From IMG/VR virus record IMGVR_UViG_3300027804_000001, positions 32,001 through 96,000 of that record: DNA of 64,000 nt. One strand, given 5' to 3'. The notes beneath the pieces are model-generated. The model did not search any database. It saw only the letters and a list, made by a program, of their open reading frames with translations, and was not told the origin of the DNA. Origin of the DNA: a virus. Taxonomy: Duplodnaviria; Caudoviricetes. Within the stretch, counting starts at the first letter, position 1; every line of letters begins with the position of its first letter. Below, one piece after another: positions 22,037 to 29,955 of the stretch. Position numbers and translations under genes: made by a program.

Positions 22037-22044
22037 TATCTTTG
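22037..22044 (+). promoter_or_regulatory. Bacteroidota -7 element for tRNA unit 1
   Basis: TATCTTTG upstream of the leader ORF. Confidence 0.7.
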
Positions 22045-22069
22045 TTAGAGATTTAAATAAAAAAGTTCG

Positions 22070-22174
22070 ATGAAACAAGTAAAACATATTATGCACTCGT
22101 TTACAATCTGTTCAAAATGGGCGGATGAGCGTGTTATGCTTTTGTCTCGAACTGAAGATATTAATAAGGGCTAA
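22070..22174 (+). CDS. Attenuator leader peptide 1 (34 aa)
   Basis: MKQVKHIMHSFTICSKWADERVMLLSRTEDINKG; 3' part carries the antiterminator strand. Confidence 0.75.
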   Translation: MKQVKHIMHSFTICSKWADERVMLLSRTEDINKG

Positions 22175-22368: not shown

Positions 22369-22441
22369 TCTTAGGTAGCTCAATGGTGAGAGCATCCGTC
22401 TGATACGCGGAAGGTTGATGGTTCGAGTCCATCTCTAAGAA
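22369..22441 (+). tRNA. tRNA-Ile(GAT)
   Basis: Full cloverleaf, loop CTGATAC. Confidence 0.92.
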
Positions 22442-22446
22442 CAATA

Positions 22447-22519
22447 GGAGATGAAGCTAACTTAGTAGAAGCGAAGGACTGAAAATCCTTAGGAGTTGGA
22501 GCGTAACCAACTATCTCCA
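22447..22519 (+). tRNA. tRNA-Phe(GAA), non-canonical T-loop
   Basis: AAGGA-CTGAAAA-TCCTT; T-loop AGCGTAA. Confidence 0.85.
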
Positions 22520-22524
22520 CAATT

Positions 22525-22598
22525 GACCTCTTAGCTCAGTTGGTTAGAGCACCTCACTTTTAATGAGGGAGTCCGCAGTTCGAGTCTGCGAGGGGTCA
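22525..22598 (+). tRNA. tRNA-Lys(TTT)
   Basis: Full cloverleaf, loop CTTTTAA. Confidence 0.95.
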
Positions 22599-22604
22599 CA
22601 ATAC

Positions 22605-22675
22605 ATGGGTGTGGTGCAATGGTAGCATTCCGGTCTCCAAAACCGTCGATGGGAGTTCGAATCTCTCCACCCGTG
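22605..22675 (+). tRNA. tRNA-Trp(CCA)
   Basis: Loop CTCCAAA, G73. Confidence 0.92.
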
Positions 22676-22693
22676 CAAAAATTAAATAAATGT

Positions 22694-22764
22694 GGTCTCA
22701 TAGTTTAATGGAAAAACGTCTCGCTACGGACGAGATGATTGGGGTTCGAATCCCTGTGAGACCT
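22694..22764 (+). tRNA. tRNA-Arg(ACG)
   Basis: TCTCG-CTACGGA-CGAGA. Confidence 0.92.
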
Positions 22765-22796
22765 CTGTTCATTGTTCGAGAACAAAGAACAAATAA

Positions 22797-22867
22797 GTCA
22801 GGTTGGCCGAGTGGTTAGGCTGAGGTCTGCAAAACCTCCTACATTGGTTCGAATCCAATACTTGACT
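22797..22867 (+). tRNA. tRNA-Cys(GCA)
   Basis: GAGGT-CTGCAAA-ACCTC, U73. Confidence 0.93.
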
Positions 22868-22869
22868 CT

Positions 22870-22945
22870 GTGATAGATGTTCGTATGGTAGAACCCAAGA
22901 TTGTGGCTCTTGGATTAGCGGGTTCGAATCCCGTCTATCACCCCA
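22870..22945 (+). tRNA. tRNA-His(GTG)
   Basis: Loop TTGTGGC; encoded G-1:C73. Confidence 0.9.
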
Positions 22946-22946
22946 T

Positions 22947-23018
22947 TGTGGGGAGGTTAGGTAACCCGTTTGGTCTCATAAGCCAGATATTCAGGTTCGA
23001 TTCCTGGCCCCGCAACCA
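22947..23018 (+). tRNA. tRNA-Met(CAT), probably elongator; short D-arm
   Basis: Loop CTCATAA, paired position 1:72, encoded CCA. Confidence 0.75.
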
Positions 23019-23059
23019 AAAAAAGATTAAAAATATTTTGTGATTTCACAATTTATTCT

Positions 23060-23067
23060 TATCTTTG
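23060..23067 (+). promoter_or_regulatory. Internal -7 promoter ahead of tRNA-fMet
   Basis: TATCTTTG; palindrome TTGTGATTTCACAA at 23038-23051 over the -33 region. Confidence 0.65.
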
Positions 23068-23077
23068 TAAAACAAAT

Positions 23078-23149
23078 CGCGAGATAGAGCAGCGGTAGCT
23101 CGGAAGGCTCATAACCTTTAGGTCGGGGGTTCGATTCCCTCTCTCGCAA
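23078..23149 (+). tRNA. tRNA-fMet(CAT)
   Basis: C1:A72 mismatch, loop CTCATAA. Confidence 0.88.
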
Positions 23150-23233
23150 CACTTGAGACTAACTCAACGAGGCTTTTGTCAACCAGAGCATGACTTGGAT
23201 GGTGCAGATTGAAGGTGGGTTAGAATCATTTTT

Positions 23234-23307
23234 GGTTTCTTGGTGTAGTGGCCTAACATGCCTCCCTGTCACGGAGGAGACCACGGGTTCGAATCCCGTA
23301 GGAACCG
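23234..23307 (+). tRNA. tRNA-Asp(GTC)
   Basis: CCTCC-CTGTCAC-GGAGG, G73. Confidence 0.95.
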
Positions 23308-23310
23308 CAA

Positions 23311-23472
23311 GTTGTTTCATACACTTAACACGCTTAGTAACAAAGCAAGGTACATAGAGTTACATAGAAGCATGGAGTGATTACCCGACGCTACATTCGG
23401 ACTACAAATGTGATTAGGTTCAGTCGTTGTAGAGAAAGAGATGTTAAGAGTAAACTTGCAAGTTGAAACAAC
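23311..23472 (+). ncRNA. Unidentified structured RNA between tRNA-Asp and tRNA-Ser
   Basis: Closing stems GTTGTTTCA/TGAAACAAC and CTTAACA/TGTTAAG, plus internal hairpins. Confidence 0.55.
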
Positions 23473-23476
23473 GATT

Positions 23477-23564
23477 GGAGAGATGGCAGAGTTGGCCGAT
23501 TGCGTCAGTCTTGAAAACTGAAGAACGGGAAACTGTTCCGTGGGTTCGAATCCTACTCTCTCCG
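23477..23564 (+). tRNA. tRNA-Ser(TGA)
   Basis: Long variable arm, loop CTTGAAA. Confidence 0.95.
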
Positions 23565-23569
23565 CACTT

Positions 23570-23641
23570 GCTCGGTTCGACTAGTGGTCAGGTCGCGTCC
23601 CTTTCACGGACGTAGCACGGGTTCGAATCCCGTACCGAGTA
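23570..23641 (+). tRNA. tRNA-Glu(TTC)
   Basis: CGTCC-CTTTCAC-GGACG. Confidence 0.95.
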
Positions 23642-23699
23642 CAAAAATTTTTTTATTATTTAAACTTTTTATATATTCACATATACTTATAAAACAGAG

Positions 23700-23804
23700 A
23701 TGAAGAATTTGAATAACATATCAACACTTAGTACGAGACCAGTTAATGGTAATGGGTATGGTGTGCAACCGTTATGTTACTCAAGTTCGGATTTCAAAAT
23801 GTAA
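23700..23804 (+). CDS. Attenuator leader peptide 2 (34 aa)
   Basis: MKNLNNISTLSTRPVNGNGYGVQPLCYSSSDFKM; 3' part carries the antiterminator strand. Confidence 0.75.
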   Translation: MKNLNNISTLSTRPVNGNGYGVQPLCYSSSDFKM

Positions 23805-23862
23805 GATTCAATCTACCTAAGATATCGAAACCCGAACTCAACAAAAAAGTTCGGGTTTTTTG
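23784..23862 (+). promoter_or_regulatory. Transcription attenuator 2 (antiterminator/terminator)
   Basis: Terminator AAACCCGAACT/AGTTCGGGTTT plus T tract; AGTTCGGATTTC (23784-23795) pairs 11/12 with GAAACCCGAACT (23827-23838). Confidence 0.82.
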
Positions 23863-23895
23863 TTTTAGTAATTTTTTATTCTTATATTTTATTAG

Positions 23896-23907
23896 GTTCT
23901 TTGACAT
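23896..23907 (+). promoter_or_regulatory. boxA-like antitermination element
   Basis: GTTCTTTGACAT just upstream of tRNA-Leu; recurs at 27150 and 29548. Confidence 0.55.
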
Positions 23908-23920
23908 TGTGGGAAAATTT

Positions 23921-24005
23921 GCCGAGGTGATGGAATGGTAGACATGACAGACTTAAAATCTGTTGGGACGAAAGTCCCGTGCGGGTTCGACTCCCGCTCT
24001 CGGTA
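23921..24005 (+). tRNA. tRNA-Leu(TAA)
   Basis: ACAGA-CTTAAAA-TCTGT, long variable arm. Confidence 0.95.
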
Positions 24006-24044
24006 CAAACACTATCGTTCTTTGGAAATAAAGGAGAAAATAAT

Positions 24045-24290
24045 ATGGATATATTATCATTTATTTTAGGAATGTCCGTTGTGGTGGTTATCGCGGTTGC
24101 GGTAGTTGCTGTAATGGCCTTTGTTAAGGTGAGAAAACATAACAAAGAAATTGATGAAATTCATCAAATAATCGGAAGAGAAATTGATGTACAAAACAGA
24201 GAGCGTGAAACAATTGTTCAAGACATATATCGAACACTAGATTCACGACTTGATAAACTTGAAAGTAAATTAAACAGCCGTAAGGCATAA
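24045..24290 (+). CDS. 81-aa single-TM coiled-coil protein inside the tRNA array
   Basis: Start refined to 24045 after AAGGAG; N-terminal hydrophobic helix; flanked by inverted repeats. Confidence 0.75.
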   Translation: MDILSFILGMSVVVVIAVAVVAVMAFVKVRKHNKEIDEIHQIIGREIDVQNRERETIVQDIYRTLDSRLDKLESKLNSRKA

Positions 24291-24329
24291 CAATTAAATA
24301 AAAAACTTTCAAAGACGATAGTGTTAATT

Positions 24330-24404
24330 GGTCTGATAGTTAAACGGATATAACAACTCTCTTCTAAAGAGTAATTCGTGGTTCGATTCCACGTCGGACT
24401 ACCA
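24330..24404 (+). tRNA. tRNA-Arg(TCT)
   Basis: ACTCT-CTTCTAA-AGAGT, encoded CCA. Confidence 0.93.
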
Positions 24405-24406
24405 TT

Positions 24407-24480
24407 CGGGATTTAGTACAGTCCGGTAGTATGCTTGGTTTGGGACCAAGAGGTCGTAGGTTCGAATCCTGCAATCCCGA
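24407..24480 (+). tRNA. tRNA-Pro(TGG)
   Basis: CTTGG-TTTGGGA-CCAAG. Confidence 0.95.
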
Positions 24481-24485
24481 CACTT

Positions 24486-24557
24486 GTCTTCTTAGCTCAG
24501 CGGTAGAGCATCTCGCTGTTAACGAGAGGGTCCAAGGTTCGAAACCTTGAGAGGACG
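24486..24557 (+). tRNA. tRNA-Asn(GTT)
   Basis: TCTCG-CTGTTAA-CGAGA, G73. Confidence 0.93.
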
Positions 24558-24563
24558 CAAATT

Positions 24564-24647
24564 GGCCGAGTGGTGGAATGGTAGACACGTTGGTCTTAGG
24601 AACCAATGTTGAAAAACGTGAGAGTTCGAATCTCTCCTTGGTCACCA
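24564..24647 (+). tRNA. tRNA-Leu(TAG)
   Basis: TTGGT-CTTAGGA-ACCAA, long variable arm, CCA. Confidence 0.95.
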
Positions 24648-24653
24648 ATAAAA

Positions 24654-24734
24654 TGGGGTATCGCATAGTGGCAATTGCGGGGGACTGTAAATCCCCTCTC
24701 ATTGAGTTCGGCGGTTCGAGTCCGTCTACCCCAA
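24654..24734 (+). tRNA. tRNA-Tyr(GTA)
   Basis: GGGGA-CTGTAAA-TCCCC, long variable arm. Confidence 0.92.
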
Positions 24735-24740
24735 CAAATT

Positions 24741-24814
24741 GGACTCGTAGCTCAGTTGGTCAGAGCAGGGCACTCATAATGCCAAGGTCGGGGGATCGTG
24801 ACCCTCCGGGTCCA
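24741..24814 (+). tRNA. tRNA(CAT), probably Ile2 (lysidine, reads ATA); non-canonical T-loop
   Basis: Loop CTCATAA, GGACTCG acceptor resembling Ile-type tRNAs, A73; T-loop ATCGTGA. Ile2 vs Met is inference. Confidence 0.7.
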
Positions 24815-24818
24815 CAAT

Positions 24819-24893
24819 AGAAGATTAGCTCAGAGGAAGAGCATTTGGTTTACATCCAAAGGGTCGGGATTTCAAAATTCTCATCTTCTACCA
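24819..24893 (+). tRNA. tRNA-Val(TAC), atypical T-arm
   Basis: TTTGG-TTTACAT-CCAAA; T-loop TTCAAAA; CCA. Confidence 0.85.
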
Positions 24894-24919
24894 AACTCGG
24901 AAGTAAAAACGAGACAAAT

Positions 24920-24995
24920 GCGGAAGTAGCTCATTAGGTAGAGCGTCTGCTTGCCAAGCAGAAGGTGGCCAGTTCGAGCCTGGTCTTCCGCTCCA
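24920..24995 (+). tRNA. tRNA-Gly(GCC)
   Basis: TCTGC-TTGCCAA-GCAGA, U73, CCA. Confidence 0.95.
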
Positions 24996-24998
24996 CAA

Positions 24999-25072
24999 GC
25001 TTCCTTAGCTCAGCAGGCCAGAGCACGTGATTTGTAATCTCGGGGTCGTCAGTTCGATTCTGACAGGAAGCT
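24999..25072 (+). tRNA. tRNA-Thr(TGT)
   Basis: Loop TTTGTAA. Confidence 0.92.
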
Positions 25073-25130
25073 CAAAAGGACTTTAATGGTTGAAGTACAA
25101 AACTGACGTAGGTTAGTCCCACCTACAAAT

Positions 25131-25202
25131 GCAGATGTCGTATAATGGCTATTACTCCATCCTTCCAAGTTGGAGACGAAGGTTCGATTCCTTTCATCTG
25201 CT
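25131..25202 (+). tRNA. tRNA-Gly(TCC)
   Basis: Loop CTTCCAA, U73. Confidence 0.92.
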
Positions 25203-25265
25203 CAATCATCAAAGAGACCGCTAAATCGAGTTAGTGAAAATCTACATTCTCAATGATGATTATTC

Positions 25266-25336
25266 TGTCCTTTAGTATAACGGTAGTACAGGTGGTTTTG
25301 GTCCATCTAGTTGGGGTTCGAATCCCTGAGGGACAA
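25266..25336 (+). tRNA. tRNA-Gln(TTG)
   Basis: GGTGG-TTTTGGT-CCATC, U1-A72. Confidence 0.92.
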
Positions 25337-25337
25337 C

Positions 25338-25577
25338 ATGGAATTAATAGCATACATAGGTGGAATATTACTTACAATTTGTGGTATACCTGAAGTCATT
25401 AGAACAATTAAAGATAAACGATGTCACTTAGGGTGGCCATTTTTATTATTATGGTTTTTTGGTGAGGTGTTTATGTTAATATATTCGGTTGATTTAAAAA
25501 GTTATCCATTAATAATGAATTATCTTTTTAATACCATTATTGTTGGGGTTATGTTATATTATAAAATAAAAAAATAA
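25338..25577 (+). CDS. PQ-loop / SemiSWEET-like 3-TM transporter
   Basis: Start refined to MELIAYIGG; ICGIPEVIRTIK PQ-loop-like motif, three TM helices, conserved N in TM3. Confidence 0.65.
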   Translation: MELIAYIGGILLTICGIPEVIRTIKDKRCHLGWPFLLLWFFGEVFMLIYSVDLKSYPLIMNYLFNTIIVGVMLYYKIKK

Positions 25578-25590
25578 AATAAAATAAACT

Positions 25591-25890
25591 ATGTGGTTAT
25601 ATGTCTTAGTATTTTTCTTTCAAGTTTTATTCAATGTTTTTAAAACTATGGAGATAAAATACACTTATGAGAATAAAGTTAAACAACTTGTGTTTAATTC
25701 GGTATGGATAAATCTTGTATCATTAGGTTCAACTTATTTTGCACTTGATAGATTATTTGCCAAAGATTGGACGGTTATTATTGTTTATATAAGTGGTAGT
25801 GTTTTTGGTAAATGGTGGGCAATGACACACTTTGTAAATTATGAAAATAAATTTTACGAATTTTTAAATAAAAGAAAAACAAAAAAATAA
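25591..25890 (+). CDS. Small multi-TM protein (DUF5698/UPF0316-like)
   Basis: Three hydrophobic segments, YISGSVFGKW-type motif. Confidence 0.5.
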   Translation: MWLYVLVFFFQVLFNVFKTMEIKYTYENKVKQLVFNSVWINLVSLGSTYFALDRLFAKDWTVIIVYISGSVFGKWWAMTHFVNYENKFYEFLNKRKTKK

Positions 25891-25893
25891 AAT

Positions 25894-26127
25894 ATGTATT
25901 TAACATTTCACATTATCTGTATCATTTATTGTATGTATCAACTAATAAAAAAATACAATAAATTATCAAATCCCGGTATGATTGGTGTATCTCCTGGTTT
26001 AGAGACCATTATGGTCATTGTATTAGCTCCTGCACTTGCAATTGTTGATGTATCATTAACATGGATTCGTTGGTATAAAGAAGCCGAAGAAGCTAGAAGA
26101 AGAAATGACGAAAGAAAAATTTTTTAG
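25894..26127 (+). CDS. Small membrane protein
   Basis: 77 aa; stop codon abuts tRNA-Ser. Confidence 0.65.
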   Translation: MYLTFHIICIIYCMYQLIKKYNKLSNPGMIGVSPGLETIMVIVLAPALAIVDVSLTWIRWYKEAEEARRRNDERKIF

Positions 26128-26212
26128 GAGAGTTACCCAAGTTGGTGAAGGGGGCAGTTTGCTAAACTGTTAGGGTGTTAAAGCCGCGAGGGTTCGAGCC
26201 CCTCACTCTCCG
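26127..26212 (+). tRNA. tRNA-Ser(GCT)
   Basis: GCAGT-TTGCTAA-ACTGT, long variable arm, G73. Confidence 0.93.
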
Positions 26213-26217
26213 CAAAT

Positions 26218-26415: not shown

Positions 26416-26877
26416 ATGAAACAATTTAGAACTCTCTATGGGACAAATATTCCTAACTTGATTGAGTATGTTAGAGAATACATCTCAACAAGAGAGAACG
26501 TAGAAATTCTCATCGGATCTGACTCACAATGTTATGGAAATAAGAAAACCATTTATGGTGTTGTAATAGCATTATATACACCAGGGAAAGGTGCACATGT
26601 TTTATGTACTCGTGAGACAACTTCGATGGAATATAATACACCATCTAGATTGTTAAATGAGGTTTGGAAATCTATTGAAATTGCGGAATGGTTAAAAGAA
26701 AATGGATTACCTAAACCTACATGGATTGATATTGATTTAAATCCTGACCCAAAGTATAAATCTAATTCCGTATTAAGACAGGCAGTTGGTTTAGTCGAGG
26801 GTATGGGATATAAAGTTAGGTATAAACACTTAGGTGCGTTAACAACATATGCTGCTAATCATTTAGTACGTATTTAA
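26416..26877 (+). CDS. YkuK-like RNase H-fold protein (DUF458)
   Basis: ILIGSDSQ, RLLNEVWKSIEIA, IDIDLNPD, AANHL motifs. Confidence 0.75.
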   Translation: MKQFRTLYGTNIPNLIEYVREYISTRENVEILIGSDSQCYGNKKTIYGVVIALYTPGKGAHVLCTRETTSMEYNTPSRLLNEVWKSIEIAEWLKENGLPKPTWIDIDLNPDPKYKSNSVLRQAVGLVEGMGYKVRYKHLGALTTYAANHLVRI

Positions 26878-26907
26878 AAATAATAATAAATTATTTATAT
26901 TTTTAAT

Positions 26908-27090
26908 ATGGGATACACTAACTCTGATTTAATGGAAGAGATTATGATTCTTTCTTTTGAAGAAGGAATTATTAATGATGTGAGAGAAGAGGTAATGAGG
27001 ATATTAAATAATAATCAAACTTTACCTTTATACGAAATATATGAAATGGCGTATAATAAAATCTCGAAAAAAAATTTTAAAAATAATTGA
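26908..27090 (+). CDS. Hypothetical protein
   Basis: 60-aa ORF. Confidence 0.6.
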   Translation: MGYTNSDLMEEIMILSFEEGIINDVREEVMRILNNNQTLPLYEIYEMAYNKISKKNFKNN

Positions 27091-27120
27091 CAAAAATTTT
27101 GTTTTTAAATAAACTCTTCG

Positions 27121-27128
27121 TATATTTG
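27121..27128 (+). promoter_or_regulatory. -7 promoter of the large ncRNA
   Basis: TATATTTG followed by boxA-like GTTCTTTGAC at 27150-27159. Confidence 0.7.
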
Positions 27129-27134
27129 TAAAAC

Positions 27135-27970
27135 AATCGGAAACGATAAGTTCTTTGACTAAAAATATTGGCCGCCTATGGTCATTAAATAAACTGTGAA
27201 AGCAGTATAAAGTGAATCTGAATTAGTTATTCAGGTTTGCGGTTTCAGAAATGGAACTTGAGTAGGCAAGCGGGATATCATCGAACCTTAAGTACTGAGG
27301 GTGACACTTTAGGGAAAGTGGTTTGGTGACCAAGCGATACCGGTCGTTTGGTTGAGGTGGGAACACCAATAAGAATAACTCGTAGAATTATTGTAAAAAG
27401 TATGGTCTCCAACTATACAATTGCGTGATTCAATACAATGGGAATCTTAAAACCGAAAGGTATGGTGATGTACAGGTGGTGCTGTTATTATCCTTGATTT
27501 GAATCTACCAAGATTCTTATCTCGAAGGGGTCCAAAAGTATGGAGGTAGGGATATCTCAGAGGGTAGTTTAGTATCGTGTTGTTCAAAAGATGACATGTC
27601 TGGTGACGAGCCACTACCTTCCAAATCGGTAACTAAAATCATTTTGTTAATTTTGGTTTAACAAACTTAAATACAAAAGGAAAAGTGCTCGTCAGTCGTT
27701 AGAGACAGGTGACTACATAGTCGTGAGGGGTTCACGGCCACAAAGGGTCCCAAGCCCAATGTGAATTGTAAGAAAGTTCTCTAGTCCCGCAAGGATTAAT
27801 CGGGGTGGCAACCTCGAAGAGTAATGAGTAAGATGAGAGTATCTAATGACTTAAGGATTGGTTAATCTAATTGACCGTCACTGGTTGGTACAGTTCAAAA
27901 GACTGTGGATAAGAAAGGAAACAATAATCTTTCTAAAGTCAACTACTAAAACTTGTAATCTCAGAGTTTT
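27135..27970 (+). ncRNA. Large structured ncRNA, GOLLD-like
   Basis: About 830 nt without a credible ORF, GC-richer than flanks, many hairpins (ACC-GAAA-GGT, GGGGT-GGCAA-CCTC, CAGT-TCAAAAG-ACTG), ends ..TGTAATCTCAG..; size and tRNA-adjacent phage context fit GOLLD; family call from memory, not a model search. Confidence 0.65.
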
Positions 27971-28040
27971 GTTTTTTAGTTTTAATAAACTAAATGGTGG
28001 AAGAGACCTCACAAAAATATTAACCGTGCGGCCCCAAATC

Positions 28041-28068
28041 AAGTCAGAATATTTCTGACTTTTTTTTT
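28041..28068 (+). terminator. Intrinsic terminator downstream of the large ncRNA
   Basis: AAGTCAGAA-tat-TTCTGACTT plus T tract. Confidence 0.75.
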
Positions 28069-28100
28069 GCATATTAAAAAATATTTTTTATATTATTAAA

Positions 28101-28856
28101 ATGAGAATTGTTTGTATATCTGATACACATAGTCTCCATAAAAATATGGAGAAATATGGACCATTACCCGAAGGTGATGTATTAATACATGCGGGTGATT
28201 GTACAAACAAAGGAGAAAAACGTGATGTAGAAGAATTTGTTCATTGGTTTATGAACATAAAAGGATTTGATTCTAAAATTTTTATTGCCGGTAATCACGA
28301 TTTTGCATTTGAAGAACATAGATATCCACATCATAAAGGTGAATACGATTGGTTTCATCATTTAATGACACCTGAAAATTTATCACAATCAGATGTTGTG
28401 TATCTTGAAGATAGTGAGTTCATAATTGAATCACCTGAATTTAATAGACCAATAAAATTTTATGGATCGCCTTGGCAACCGGAGTTTTATAATTGGGCAT
28501 TTAATTTACCAAGACTTGGTGAAGATTTAAAAAGATATTGGTCAATGATTCCTGATGATACTGATGTATTAATTACCCACGGACCACCTAATGAAGCGAG
28601 GGATTTTGTAAATAATTGGAGACAAGGTAGTATTAATGTTGGGTGTGAATTATTACGTCATCGTGTAGATGAAATAAAACCTTTGTTACATGTGTTTGGT
28701 CACATTCACGGAGGTTATGGTGGTGCTTATATTAAAGACACTCTTTTTGTTAATGCATCAATTTGTACAGAACAATACATACCATCAAATAAACCCATTG
28801 TAATTGAATTAAAAGAATTCGATGGAAATATAGAAGCAATTTATGTCGAAGAATAA
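28101..28856 (+). CDS. Calcineurin-like metallophosphoesterase (MPPED/Rv0805-like)
   Basis: ISDTH, HAGD, AGNHD, THGPP, FGHIH. Confidence 0.9.
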   Translation: MRIVCISDTHSLHKNMEKYGPLPEGDVLIHAGDCTNKGEKRDVEEFVHWFMNIKGFDSKIFIAGNHDFAFEEHRYPHHKGEYDWFHHLMTPENLSQSDVVYLEDSEFIIESPEFNRPIKFYGSPWQPEFYNWAFNLPRLGEDLKRYWSMIPDDTDVLITHGPPNEARDFVNNWRQGSINVGCELLRHRVDEIKPLLHVFGHIHGGYGGAYIKDTLFVNASICTEQYIPSNKPIVIELKEFDGNIEAIYVEE

Positions 28857-29526
28857 TCAACCTGTAAGTGTTATAATACCAACACGTCAAATAGATGATG
28901 ACTATTTGAAACATGTGAGTAAGATGTTTTCACATCCTAAAACTGAAATAATTGTTTATGAAAATAATGGTGAAGAATCTTTACCACAAATTTATAATAA
29001 AGGTTTAGAAGAATCGACATACGATATTGTTGTTTTTATGCATGACGATTTAATTATTGAGACGACAAATATTACACCTAAAATTGTTAAATTATTTGAT
29101 AAAAATCTTGAGTATGGTATTTTAGGTTTAGCAGGAACAAATAATTTATTAAGTGGAATGTGGTGGCAAGATAGAACATCTATGTATGGTGTTGTTGGTC
29201 ATGAACATAATGGAAAAAGACATGTGAATTATTATTCAAAACAAATGTTCACTGAGACACCTAAAGAAGTGGTTGTTGTTGATGGATTATTTATGATGGT
29301 TCATAAAAAAAGAATCAAACATAAATTCAACGAACAGTTTGAAGGTTTTCATTTTTACGATTTACCAATATGTCTTGATAATCATTTGGATGGGGTTAAA
29401 ATTGGAGTTACAACTAGAATTAGAGTAACACACAAATCAATAGGAATGGTTAATAAAAAATGGGAGAAGAATAAACTTCTATTTGAGGCGTTATATGAAA
29501 AAAACTTTCCTTTGGTAATATCATAA
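28843..29526 (+). CDS. GT-A glycosyltransferase-like protein
   Basis: YNKG, VFMHDD, VVVDGLFM, FHFYDLPIC motifs. Confidence 0.75.
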   Translation: MSKNNQPVSVIIPTRQIDDDYLKHVSKMFSHPKTEIIVYENNGEESLPQIYNKGLEESTYDIVVFMHDDLIIETTNITPKIVKLFDKNLEYGILGLAGTNNLLSGMWWQDRTSMYGVVGHEHNGKRHVNYYSKQMFTETPKEVVVVDGLFMMVHKKRIKHKFNEQFEGFHFYDLPICLDNHLDGVKIGVTTRIRVTHKSIGMVNKKWEKNKLLFEALYEKNFPLVIS

Positions 29527-29561
29527 AATATTTATATCTTTACATTAGTTCTTTAAAATAT

Positions 29562-29955
29562 GGGGGTGTCTGGTATTGATTGGCGTTAATATGATAGGTG
29601 GGCACGTAGTCGGATGTCATCTACGACTTTAATCAACGGTGGTAAAATTCAAACGGCAACGTTTACAACAAAATGGAAGCTTGCGGATTAATTGCAACTT
29701 CTAACGTAGCAGTAGCCTAAGGCGAGACTACATTCGGGTCGGTTAGGACATTAACCTAGGAACAGAAGTCCAATATACGGGTCACAGGTCAGAGCTCGTT
29801 TAAAATAATTCTGAGACCAGGTTGTTTATAGGTTGGTTTCCCACATACATCAAACCTAATATTTCGGAACATTGAGAAACAATGTTGTAATAAACGTGTA
29901 GTCCATTTATGGTATTGCGAGCAAGACACGGGTTCGACTCCCGTCACCTCCACCA
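29562..29955 (+). ncRNA. ssrA: tmRNA
   Basis: Ala acceptor GGGGGTG/CACCTCC-ACCA with G3:U70, T-arm GGTTCGACTCC; tag ORF 29655-29720 GNVYNKMEACGLIATSNVAVA*. Confidence 0.93.

What the first reader, a model, noticed from the sequence alone, without database searches (positions are those of the whole stretch)
27121..28068. GOLLD-like giant ncRNA with rRNA-style expression signals
Seen: dedicated -7 promoter, boxA-like element, about 830 nt of hairpin-rich non-coding sequence and a terminator. Established: GOLLD RNAs are about 800 nt, occur near tRNAs in phages and have no known function. Inference: boxA-type antitermination implies high-level expression; its position between attenuated tRNA arrays and tmRNA hints at a translation-related or decoy role.
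Basis: partly seen in the sequence, partly recalled or inferred. Interest (0 to 1): 0.65.

Follow-up and report, generated by a model that had tools for sequence, protein, structure and literature searches.

The report
Phage GOLLD RNA with rRNA-style leader
This stretch of a large lake phage encodes a true member of the known giant, cage-forming GOLLD RNA family, and it starts with the same promoter, hairpin and boxA signal that the host phylum puts before its ribosomal RNA genes, so the RNA is probably made by termination-resistant rRNA-type transcription.

Summary
Rfam's GOLLD model (RF02032) matches 27560-27967 (+) end to end at 322.5 bits against a cut-off of 150. The 400 nt upstream are the family's 5' domain: about 90 IMG/VR loci share it, and 73 of 101 predicted pairs show compensatory changes.

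A Bacteroidota-type promoter (TTTG 27098-27101, TATATTTG 27121-27128), a GAAA-loop hairpin (27136-27147), the word GTTCTTTGAC (27150-27159) and a strong terminator (28041-28068) frame a transcript of about 935 nt with no ORF above 66 aa.

The boxA reading is supported by comparison:
- GTTCTTTGA is the commonest 9-mer both upstream of related GOLLDs (63 of 68) and in Bacteroidota 16S leaders (42 of 101).
- It keeps a fixed distance from the promoter but a variable one from the RNA core.
- It also precedes phage tRNAs and tmRNAs, including in this window.

I found no paper in the held library that links GOLLD with boxA. This scan has already noted the same leader before GOLLD on other phage DNA several times.

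Verdict: an ordinary new member of a known RNA family, with a real and apparently unpublished rRNA-style leader. Nus binding, expression level, cage assembly and biological role are all untested. The hinted translation or decoy role remains speculation.

The parts
27098..27101 (+). -33 element TTTG of a Bacteroidota-type promoter
   Evidence: TTTG-N19-TATATTTG match at 27098-27128. The nearest relatives (L010, L053, L091) keep the same layout.
27121..27128 (+). -7 element TATATTTG (TAnnTTTG); the transcription start is inferred at about 27131-27136 within TAAAACAA
   Evidence: TAnnTTTGTAAAAC(AA) is conserved in related GOLLD leaders. A second exact copy lies at 23060-23073 before tRNA-Met. The start site is predicted, not measured.
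27136..27147 (+). Leader hairpin AUCG-GAAA-CGAU (boxB-like position)
   Evidence: In relatives the stem covaries (UCGG/CCGA, CAGG/CCUG, UUGG/CCAA, GUUACUC/GAGUAAC). Mean fold energy is -4.2 against -0.95 kcal/mol for shuffles. Host 16S leaders show the same hairpin-then-boxA order.
27150..27160 (+). boxA-like word GTTCTTTGACT
   Evidence: Present in 61-64 of 68 non-redundant related leaders; the loci hold 119 hits against 7.6 expected. It is the same top 9-mer as in Bacteroidota 16S leaders. It differs at one position from the gamma-proteobacterial consensus GYTCTTTAANA (PMC5725501).
27165..27559 (+). GOLLD 5' domain (variable 'cap' domain of the family)
   Evidence: nhmmer hits in about 90 IMG/VR loci (up to 344 bits); 34-sequence alignment A2, 101 predicted pairs, 73 with compensatory changes.
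27560..27967 (+). GOLLD conserved 3' domain (Rfam RF02032, model positions 1-416)
   Evidence: 322.5 bits against gathering score 150, E = 1e-91, not truncated, only three non-canonical pairs marked.
27628..27690 (+). A/U-rich variable linker after the first hairpin of the 3' domain (the equivalent is disordered inside the solved cage)
   Evidence: low posterior probability and unpaired model positions 62-136. PMC12286853 describes linker 497-538 of env-38.
27789..27792 (+). Loop GCAA of hairpin P21a, with the self-complementary GC dinucleotide
   Evidence: GC in the window and most relatives, UCGA in the L001/L011 clade. This is the GC/CG switch that PMC12286853 reports for the intermolecular kissing loop B8.
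27968..28040 (+). 3' trailer: U-run, an A/U hairpin (27975-27994), then ATGGTGGA...CCGTGCGGCCCC; role unknown
   Evidence: conserved in the nearest relatives (L010, L105, L104, L091); replaced by a tRNA-Met or a short tail elsewhere. Pairing with the 5' end is not supported.
28041..28068 (+). Intrinsic terminator: 9-bp stem AAGUCAGAA/UUCUGACUU, loop UAU, nine U
   Evidence: z = -3.3. The stem is conserved in relatives L010, L036, L083, L104, L105, L111.
23896..23905 (+). Second exact copy of GTTCTTTGAC, after the attenuator terminator and 15 nt before tRNA-Leu (tRNA block 2)
   Evidence: Same arrangement in L116, L104, L110.
29548..29558 (+). boxA variant GTTCTTTAAAA, 3 nt before the tmRNA 5' end
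   Evidence: In L003, L030, L071 and L120 the leaders read TATATTTG..AGTTCTTTGAAA before tmRNA-like 5' ends, judged by eye rather than by ARAGORN.

Best explanation
The locus is one transcription unit for a GOLLD RNA of a large Bacteroidota-infecting lake phage.

Shown here:
- The RNA is a full-length family member, with a 5' domain at 27165-27559 and a 3' domain at 27560-27967.
- It is preceded by a host-type promoter, a small hairpin and the host phylum's rRNA-leader boxA word, and is closed by a strong intrinsic terminator.

Inferred mechanism:
- Host RNA polymerase starts near 27133.
- The nascent hairpin-boxA leader recruits NusB-S10 and the other Nus factors, as on rrn operons.
- The resulting elongation complex resists Rho on about 0.9 kb of untranslated RNA, elongates fast, and chaperones ordered folding of the two domains.
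- Transcription stops at 28068.

By homology with the solved env-38 GOLLD, the RNA then self-assembles through conserved kissing loops into a multimeric RNA-only nanocage (14-mer in env-38).

The same boxA word before the phage's tRNA block 2, an intervening ORF and the tmRNA suggests a shared stable-RNA expression programme. What the cage does is not known. My best guess is a bulk structural RNA that serves the phage's translation-support module by binding or enclosing tRNA- or ribosome-related cargo.
For: GOLLD identity:
- 322.5 bits, full model.
- 5' domain homology and 73 of 101 covarying pairs.
- the L21a GC palindrome is kept.

Leader:
- promoter, hairpin and boxA are conserved in relatives.
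- boxA in 61 of 68 leaders; 119 hits against 7.6 expected.
- GTTCTTTGA is the top 9-mer in both GOLLD leaders (63 of 68) and Bacteroidota 16S leaders (42 of 101).
- the word lies 75-200 nt before 16S in 35 of 101 leaders, against about 0.1 expected by my own hand estimate from base composition (no tool computed it).
- the distance from the -7 box is 21-28 nt, while the distance to the RNA core ranges 18-121 nt.
- a hairpin precedes boxA in both phage and host leaders.
- the same word stands before tRNAs and tmRNAs.
- terminator.

Literature:
- rrn leaders run boxB-boxA-boxC, boxA is the main determinant, and the Nus/SuhB ring chaperones RNA (PMC8632103).
- GOLLD forms a D7 14-mer cage (PMC12286853).
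Against: - No expression data: the transcription start, RNA abundance and 3' end are predictions.
- No binding data for any Bacteroidota NusB-S10.
- No clear boxC. Only a recurring ATATTGG after boxA was seen by eye in the, 32 and 35 listings, and it was not counted.
- The leader hairpin is weak here (4 bp, -3.3 kcal/mol) and absent in some close relatives (L010, L091, L105).
- GOLLDs with other 5' domains show no such word within 1.1 kb upstream, so the leader is a clade feature, not a family feature.
- Cage stoichiometry may differ: the Streptococcus agalactiae 3' domain forms mainly decamers (PMC12990946).
- The proposed cargo or role rests on context only.
Confidence: 0.7

Rival explanations
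1. The conserved GTTCTTTGA word works at another level than Nus recruitment. It could be a promoter-proximal DNA site for a host or phage regulator, an initial-transcribed-sequence effect, or a shared RNase processing signal of stable-RNA precursors. The GOLLD itself is still real.
For: The word sits at a fixed 21-28 nt from the -7 box. It often lies only 15-30 nt before mature tRNA or tmRNA 5' ends, where a processing signal would also lie. At 24008-24029 it is buried in a long helix.
Against: It equals the host phylum's 16S-leader word and differs at one position from the experimentally defined boxA consensus (PMC5725501). It is strand-specific and preceded by a hairpin, as in rrn leaders.
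Confidence: 0.13
2. The word is a structural part of the mature GOLLD RNA, for instance UUUGAA pairing with the UUCAAAAG loops of the 3' domain within or between subunits, and it only resembles boxA.
For: Two 3'-domain hairpin loops read UUCAAAAG, which is complementary to UUUGAA over 6 nt. The word is kept in 61-64 of 68 GOLLD leaders.
Against: The same word precedes tRNAs, tmRNAs and host 16S genes that have no GOLLD. Its distance to the RNA core varies from 18 to 121 nt. GOLLDs of other clades lack it.
Confidence: 0.1
3. The transcript is mainly a cis-acting leader or regulatory RNA for the downstream metallophosphoesterase and glycosyltransferase genes (28101-29526), not a free-standing RNA.
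For: Same strand, only 33 nt between the terminator's U-run and the ATG at 28101. boxA-modified polymerase might read through some terminators.
Against: A strong conserved terminator lies between them. In relatives the downstream neighbour varies between tRNA-Met, other genes and opposite-strand DNA. The solved family member acts as a free RNA assembly (PMC12286853).
Confidence: 0.03
4. The boxA-like word is here by chance or by descent, without function.
For: The genome is A/T-rich. The looser pattern GTTCTTTRA is not enriched in the window as a whole (5 found, 3.2 expected).
Against: The exact 10-mer occurs twice against 0.18 expected, both times before stable RNAs. There is a 16-fold excess across 1.2 Mb of related loci, and the word keeps its position across diverged leaders.
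Confidence: 0.03

Closest known systems
GOLLD RNA family (Rfam RF02032; Weinberg et al. 2009, from my own knowledge; env-38 cryo-EM structure, Kretsch et al. 2025, PMC12286853)
   Same: - Full-length match to the conserved 3' domain.
- A structured 5' domain of about 400 nt, for a core of about 800 nt.
- A variable linker after the first 3'-domain hairpin.
- A self-complementary L21a loop.
- Phage location next to tRNA genes.
   Different: Nothing that sets it apart from the lake-type members. It has the shortest leader class (boxA 20 nt from the core, no inserted hairpins), its own promoter rather than a tRNA-Met upstream, and a 73-nt trailer instead of the tRNA-Met that often follows.
Bacterial rrn operon leader (boxB-boxA-boxC) and the rrn antitermination complex of NusA/B/E/G, SuhB and S4 (PMC8632103, PMC4807359)
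   Same: Promoter, then hairpin, then a boxA word identical to that of Bacteroidota 16S leaders, in front of a long, untranslated, highly structured RNA that ends at a strong intrinsic terminator.
   Different: - No rRNA behind it.
- One promoter rather than tandem P1/P2.
- No recognisable boxC.
- No supported leader-trailer helix.
- No evidence yet that Nus factors bind.
Phage use of host Nus factors: lambda nut sites, and the boxA element downstream of the T7 early promoters (PMC3709561, PMC2800207)
   Same: A phage transcript carries the host's boxA so that host polymerase becomes termination-resistant.
   Different: In lambda and T7 the signal serves early protein-coding operons, and lambda also needs the N protein. 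Here it precedes stable non-coding RNAs (GOLLD, tRNAs, tmRNA) in a Bacteroidota phage.
ROOL RNA (the other phage-associated cage-forming giant RNA)
   Same: Phage- or prophage-encoded, near tRNAs, forms an RNA-only nanocage (PMC12286853).
   Different: Unrelated sequence and fold. No hit from any other Rfam family (ROOL included, if the release holds a model for it) in 26900-28300, even at E up to 1.

Membership tests
GOLLD RNA (RF02032) | Covariance-model score above the curated gathering score over the whole conserved 3' domain | tested here: met
   322.5 bits against 150, model 1-416 of 416, E = 1e-91, + strand only.
GOLLD RNA (RF02032) | Structured but more variable 5' domain of about 400 nt directly upstream | tested here: met
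   homologous in about 90 loci; 73 of 101 predicted pairs have compensatory changes.
GOLLD RNA (RF02032) | Total size about 800 nt, non-coding | tested here: met
   27165-27967 is 803 nt. No ORF above 66 aa.
GOLLD RNA (RF02032) | Phage or prophage location, commonly beside tRNA genes | tested here: met
   25 tRNAs at 22369-26213 and a tmRNA at 29562-29955, all on the + strand. The relatives are IMG/VR viral contigs and huge phages LR745206 and LR756502.
GOLLD RNA (RF02032) | Self-complementary dinucleotide (GC or CG) in loop L21a, used for the inter-subunit kissing contact | tested here: met
   GCAA at 27789-27792; UCGA in the L001/L011 clade.
GOLLD RNA (RF02032) | Assembly into a homo-oligomeric RNA nanocage | not testable with these tools
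   Needs in vitro transcription plus mass photometry or cryo-EM.
GOLLD RNA (RF02032) | Expression rising during lytic growth | not testable with these tools
   No transcriptome is available for this uncultured phage.
rrn-type boxA antitermination leader | boxA word matching the host's rRNA-leader boxA | tested here: met
   GTTCTTTGA is the top 9-mer of 101 Bacteroidota 16S leaders (42) and of 68 GOLLD leaders (63). It differs at one position from GYTCTTTAANA (PMC5725501).
rrn-type boxA antitermination leader | Located in the transcribed leader just downstream of the promoter | tested here: inconclusive
   It lies 21 nt after the -7 box (21-28 nt in most relatives), but the start site is predicted, not mapped.
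rrn-type boxA antitermination leader | boxB-like hairpin 5' of boxA (rrn order) | tested here: met
   Hairpin at 27136-27147. The stem covaries in relatives, and 43 of 65 leaders fold at -3 kcal/mol or better. Host leaders are alike. Some close relatives lack it.
rrn-type boxA antitermination leader | boxC element 3' of boxA | tested here: inconclusive
   No match to the E. coli boxC. A recurrent ATATTGG after boxA was seen by eye in phage and host leaders but was not counted or tested.
rrn-type boxA antitermination leader | Leader-trailer helix joining the two ends of the precursor | tested here: not met
   an 11-bp pairing of 27170-27182 with 28023-28033 appears in the single-sequence fold, but it is no better than shuffles (65 of 300). 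L105, L036 and L083 break it without compensation, and it conflicts with a covarying helix of A2.
rrn-type boxA antitermination leader | NusB-S10 binding and resistance to Rho-dependent termination | not testable with these tools
   Needs biochemistry or reporters in a Bacteroidota host.

The most novel reading that the evidence does not exclude
Large Bacteroidota phages run a 'boxA regulon' of stable RNAs (GOLLD, tRNA blocks, tmRNA). The regulon captures the host's rRNA antitermination and chaperone complex. The complex would be needed to fold the 0.8-kb GOLLD co-transcriptionally into an assembly-competent subunit. The flood of phage boxA leaders would at the same time draw limiting Nus factors away from host rrn operons, tying the phage's own translation-support RNAs to shut-down of host ribosome synthesis.
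Probability: 0.15. Interest if true: 0.7.

Novelty: new member of a known kind. Interest (0 to 1): 0.4.

Why it matters
GOLLD has been known since 2009 and its cage structure since 2025, yet nothing is known about how it is made or what it does. If the boxA leader is functional, this clade of GOLLD RNAs is synthesised like ribosomal RNA: Rho-resistant, fast and chaperoned, and co-ordinated with phage tRNAs and tmRNA. That places GOLLD among the phage's translation-linked stable RNAs. It also gives concrete handles for experiments, namely boxA mutants, Nus factor binding and reporter fusions in Flavobacterium or Bacteroides. For annotation, the hairpin plus GTTCTTTGAA word is a useful marker of stable-RNA transcription units in Bacteroidota phages.

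Tried and rejected
- Leader-trailer (end-to-end) helix. A single-sequence fold pairs 27170-27182 with 28023-28033, but it is not better than shuffles, is not compensated in relatives, and conflicts with a covarying helix. Rejected.
- Trailer 27968-28040 as a decayed tRNA. Many relatives have tRNA-Met at this place, but ARAGORN and Rfam find none here and the fold is no better than shuffles. Left unexplained.
- P27 hairpin plus U-run (27950-27977) as the real terminator. The fold z-score is 0.1, so it is at best a weak stop.
- boxA as a universal GOLLD feature. GOLLDs with other 5' domains lack it within 1.1 kb upstream.
- Sigma-70-like TTGACA-17-TAAACT (27087-27115) as the promoter. This is less likely than the -33/-7 pair, because relatives conserve TAnnTTTGTAAAAC rather than that hexamer.
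- Search of the window's own genome. No genome is held.
- The 'phages' collection gave only two relatives, both unannotated huge phages.
- PMC7549688 (Mycobacterium GOLLD) is not held.

Full report
WHAT IS THERE

Rfam's covariance model for GOLLD (RF02032) matches window 27560-27967 on the + strand at 322.5 bits. The gathering score is 150 and E = 1e-91. The match covers model positions 1-416 of 416, is not truncated, and has only three non-canonical pairs.

The Rfam model covers only the family's conserved 3' half. The 5' half (27165-27559) was tested separately:
- nhmmer finds it in about 90 IMG/VR GOLLD loci, up to 344 bits.
- It is also in the two huge phages LR745206 and LR756502.
- In a 34-sequence alignment, RNAalifold predicts 101 pairs, and 73 of them have compensatory double changes.

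The interval holds no ORF longer than 66 aa. The core is 803 nt. This agrees with the published domain layout of env-38, with its 5' domain at 1-420, 3' domain at 421-833 and a disordered linker after the first 3' hairpin (PMC12286853). In the window that linker is 27628-27690.

EXPRESSION SIGNALS

Promoter. Upstream lies TTTG (27098-27101), 19 nt, then TATATTTG (27121-27128), the Bacteroidota -33/-7 form.
- The extended word TAnnTTTGTAAAAC occurs exactly twice in the 64 kb. The other copy is at 23060-23073, right before tRNA-Met.
- Related leaders conserve TAAYTTTGTAAAACAA.
- I infer a transcription start near 27133.

Leader. A 4-bp hairpin with a GAAA loop follows (27136-27147), then GTTCTTTGACT (27150-27160).

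Terminator. At the far end a 9-bp stem plus nine U (28041-28068) is the only terminator-like site in 26700-28300. It folds with z = -3.3, and its stem is conserved in the nearest relatives.

The predicted primary transcript is therefore about 935 nt.

IS THE boxA-LIKE WORD MORE THAN CHANCE?

In the window:
- The exact 10-mer occurs twice against 0.18 expected. The second copy is 15 nt before tRNA block 2, downstream of that block's attenuator terminator.
- A variant, GTTCTTTAAAA, lies 3 nt before the tmRNA.
- Another variant, CGTTCTTTGG, lies between tRNA-Leu and a small ORF.

Across relatives:
- 61 of 68 non-redundant GOLLD upstream segments contain GTTCTTTGA[AC].
- The loci hold 119 hits against 7.6 expected.
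- Of the non-redundant hits, 71 lie in GOLLD leaders. Of the 31 others, at least 11 lie before tRNAs, four before tmRNA-like 5' ends (judged by eye, not by ARAGORN), several at tRNA-to-ORF junctions, and the rest in coding sequence or unexplained.

An unbiased 9-mer count makes the point without choosing a motif beforehand. GTTCTTTGA is the commonest word in the GOLLD upstream segments (63 of 68). It is also the commonest word in 101 Bacteroidota 16S rRNA leaders fetched by a 16S 5'-end pattern (42 of 101). In those leaders it lies mostly 75-200 nt before the 16S start.

In both sets the 28 nt before the word fold better than shuffles:
- Phage leaders: -4.2 against -0.95 kcal/mol.
- Host leaders: -4.25 against -1.7 kcal/mol.

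The phage hairpin stems covary. This is the rrn order, boxB hairpin then boxA, in which boxA is the main determinant (PMC8632103). The word differs at one position from the experimentally grounded gamma-proteobacterial consensus GYTCTTTAANA (PMC5725501).

Two distance distributions argue for a transcription-linked role rather than a structural one:
- From the -7 box to boxA the distance is 21-28 nt in most leaders.
- From boxA to the RNA core it ranges from 18 to 121 nt, because relatives carry inserted hairpins. The window is in the minimal class at 20 nt.

LIMITS

- GOLLDs with other 5' domains show no such word within 1.1 kb upstream. The leader is a feature of this lake, Bacteroidota-phage clade.
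- There is one promoter here, not a tandem pair.
- No boxC is recognisable.
- A leader-trailer helix is not supported.
- No expression or binding data exist.

HOW IT MOST LIKELY WORKS

Shown:
- Family membership.
- Leader anatomy and its identity with host rrn leaders.
- The terminator.
- Retention of the self-complementary GC in loop L21a (27789-27792). The L001/L011 clade has UCGA instead. This is the same GC/CG switch reported for an inter-subunit kissing contact (PMC12286853).

Inferred:
- The nascent leader nucleates a Nus-factor complex on host polymerase.
- That complex protects the long untranslated transcript from Rho and aids ordered folding.
- The RNA then self-assembles into a nanocage like env-38.

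The biological role is open. The context is a same-strand island of 25 tRNAs, a tRNA-like RNA, GOLLD and a tmRNA, interspersed with several protein-coding genes that include an RNase H-like gene and a metallophosphoesterase gene. This fits a link to translation but proves nothing.

COMPARISON AND NOVELTY

The RNA is a typical lake-type GOLLD, a new member of a known family.

The rRNA-style leader is real, and I found no paper in the held library that contains both GOLLD and boxA or a Nus term. Phage use of boxA is itself known for lambda and T7 early operons (PMC3709561, PMC2800207).

This scan's earlier notes report the same leader before GOLLD on several other phage contigs. My tests here were run independently and agree, including on the weakness of an end-to-end stem. 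An unchecked note places a phage NusG gene elsewhere in this genome.

VERDICT

- Observation: confirmed.
- Interpretation: supported, except for the untested functional hints.
- Novelty: new member of a known kind.
- Interest: moderate (0.4), owing to the leader rather than the RNA.

Noticed in passing
window 24008-24326: An 81-aa membrane-like ORF (24046-24291), with a strong AAGGAG and a boxA variant CGTTCTTTGG, lies between tRNA-Leu and tRNA-Arg. It is bracketed by arms (about 24008-24029 and 24306-24326) that can form a helix of about 19 bp with two bulges, burying the boxA word. This may be a processing stem. L104, L110 and L116 keep the tRNA-Leu, boxA and ORF arrangement.
   Followed up: partly
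window 23037-23073: A second promoter of the GOLLD type (TTTG-N19-TATCTTTGTAAAAC) lies inside tRNA block 1, directly before tRNA-Met at 23078.
   Followed up: no
window 22037-22074: The leader of tRNA block 1 has TATCTTTG (22037-22044) and then GTTCGATGAA (22065-22074). This matches the boxA word at 8 of 10 positions and overlaps the ATG of the leader peptide. It may be a degenerate boxA or chance.
   Followed up: no
window 27968-28040; L010, L104, L105, L091: A conserved 3' trailer follows GOLLD: an A/U hairpin, then (A/G)TGGTGGA ... CCGTGCGGCCCC. More distant relatives carry ATGGAGCnACCGGTAAAA at the same place. I found no pairing partner or function.
   Followed up: partly
L004, L025, L031, L040, L072, L077, L086 and L019, L045, L076 (3' flank of GOLLD): In many relatives a tRNA with a CAT anticodon loop (Met-like) starts within about 10 nt of the GOLLD 3' end. 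In the huge phages LR745206 and LR756502, ARAGORN calls odd tRNA-like genes with two-base anticodons beside their GOLLD.
   Followed up: no
L103, L078, L021, L029, L022, L026, L115, L028 (upstream of GOLLD): A subgroup of leaders has two boxA-like words about 90 nt apart and a conserved GAAAGATACTCGGTATTCAAAT element before the first, instead of a visible promoter.
   Followed up: no
window 26416-26877 and 28101-29526: The GOLLD unit is flanked by an RNase H-like (PF04308) gene upstream, and by a calcineurin-like metallophosphoesterase gene and a family-2 glycosyltransferase gene downstream, all on the + strand.
   Followed up: partly
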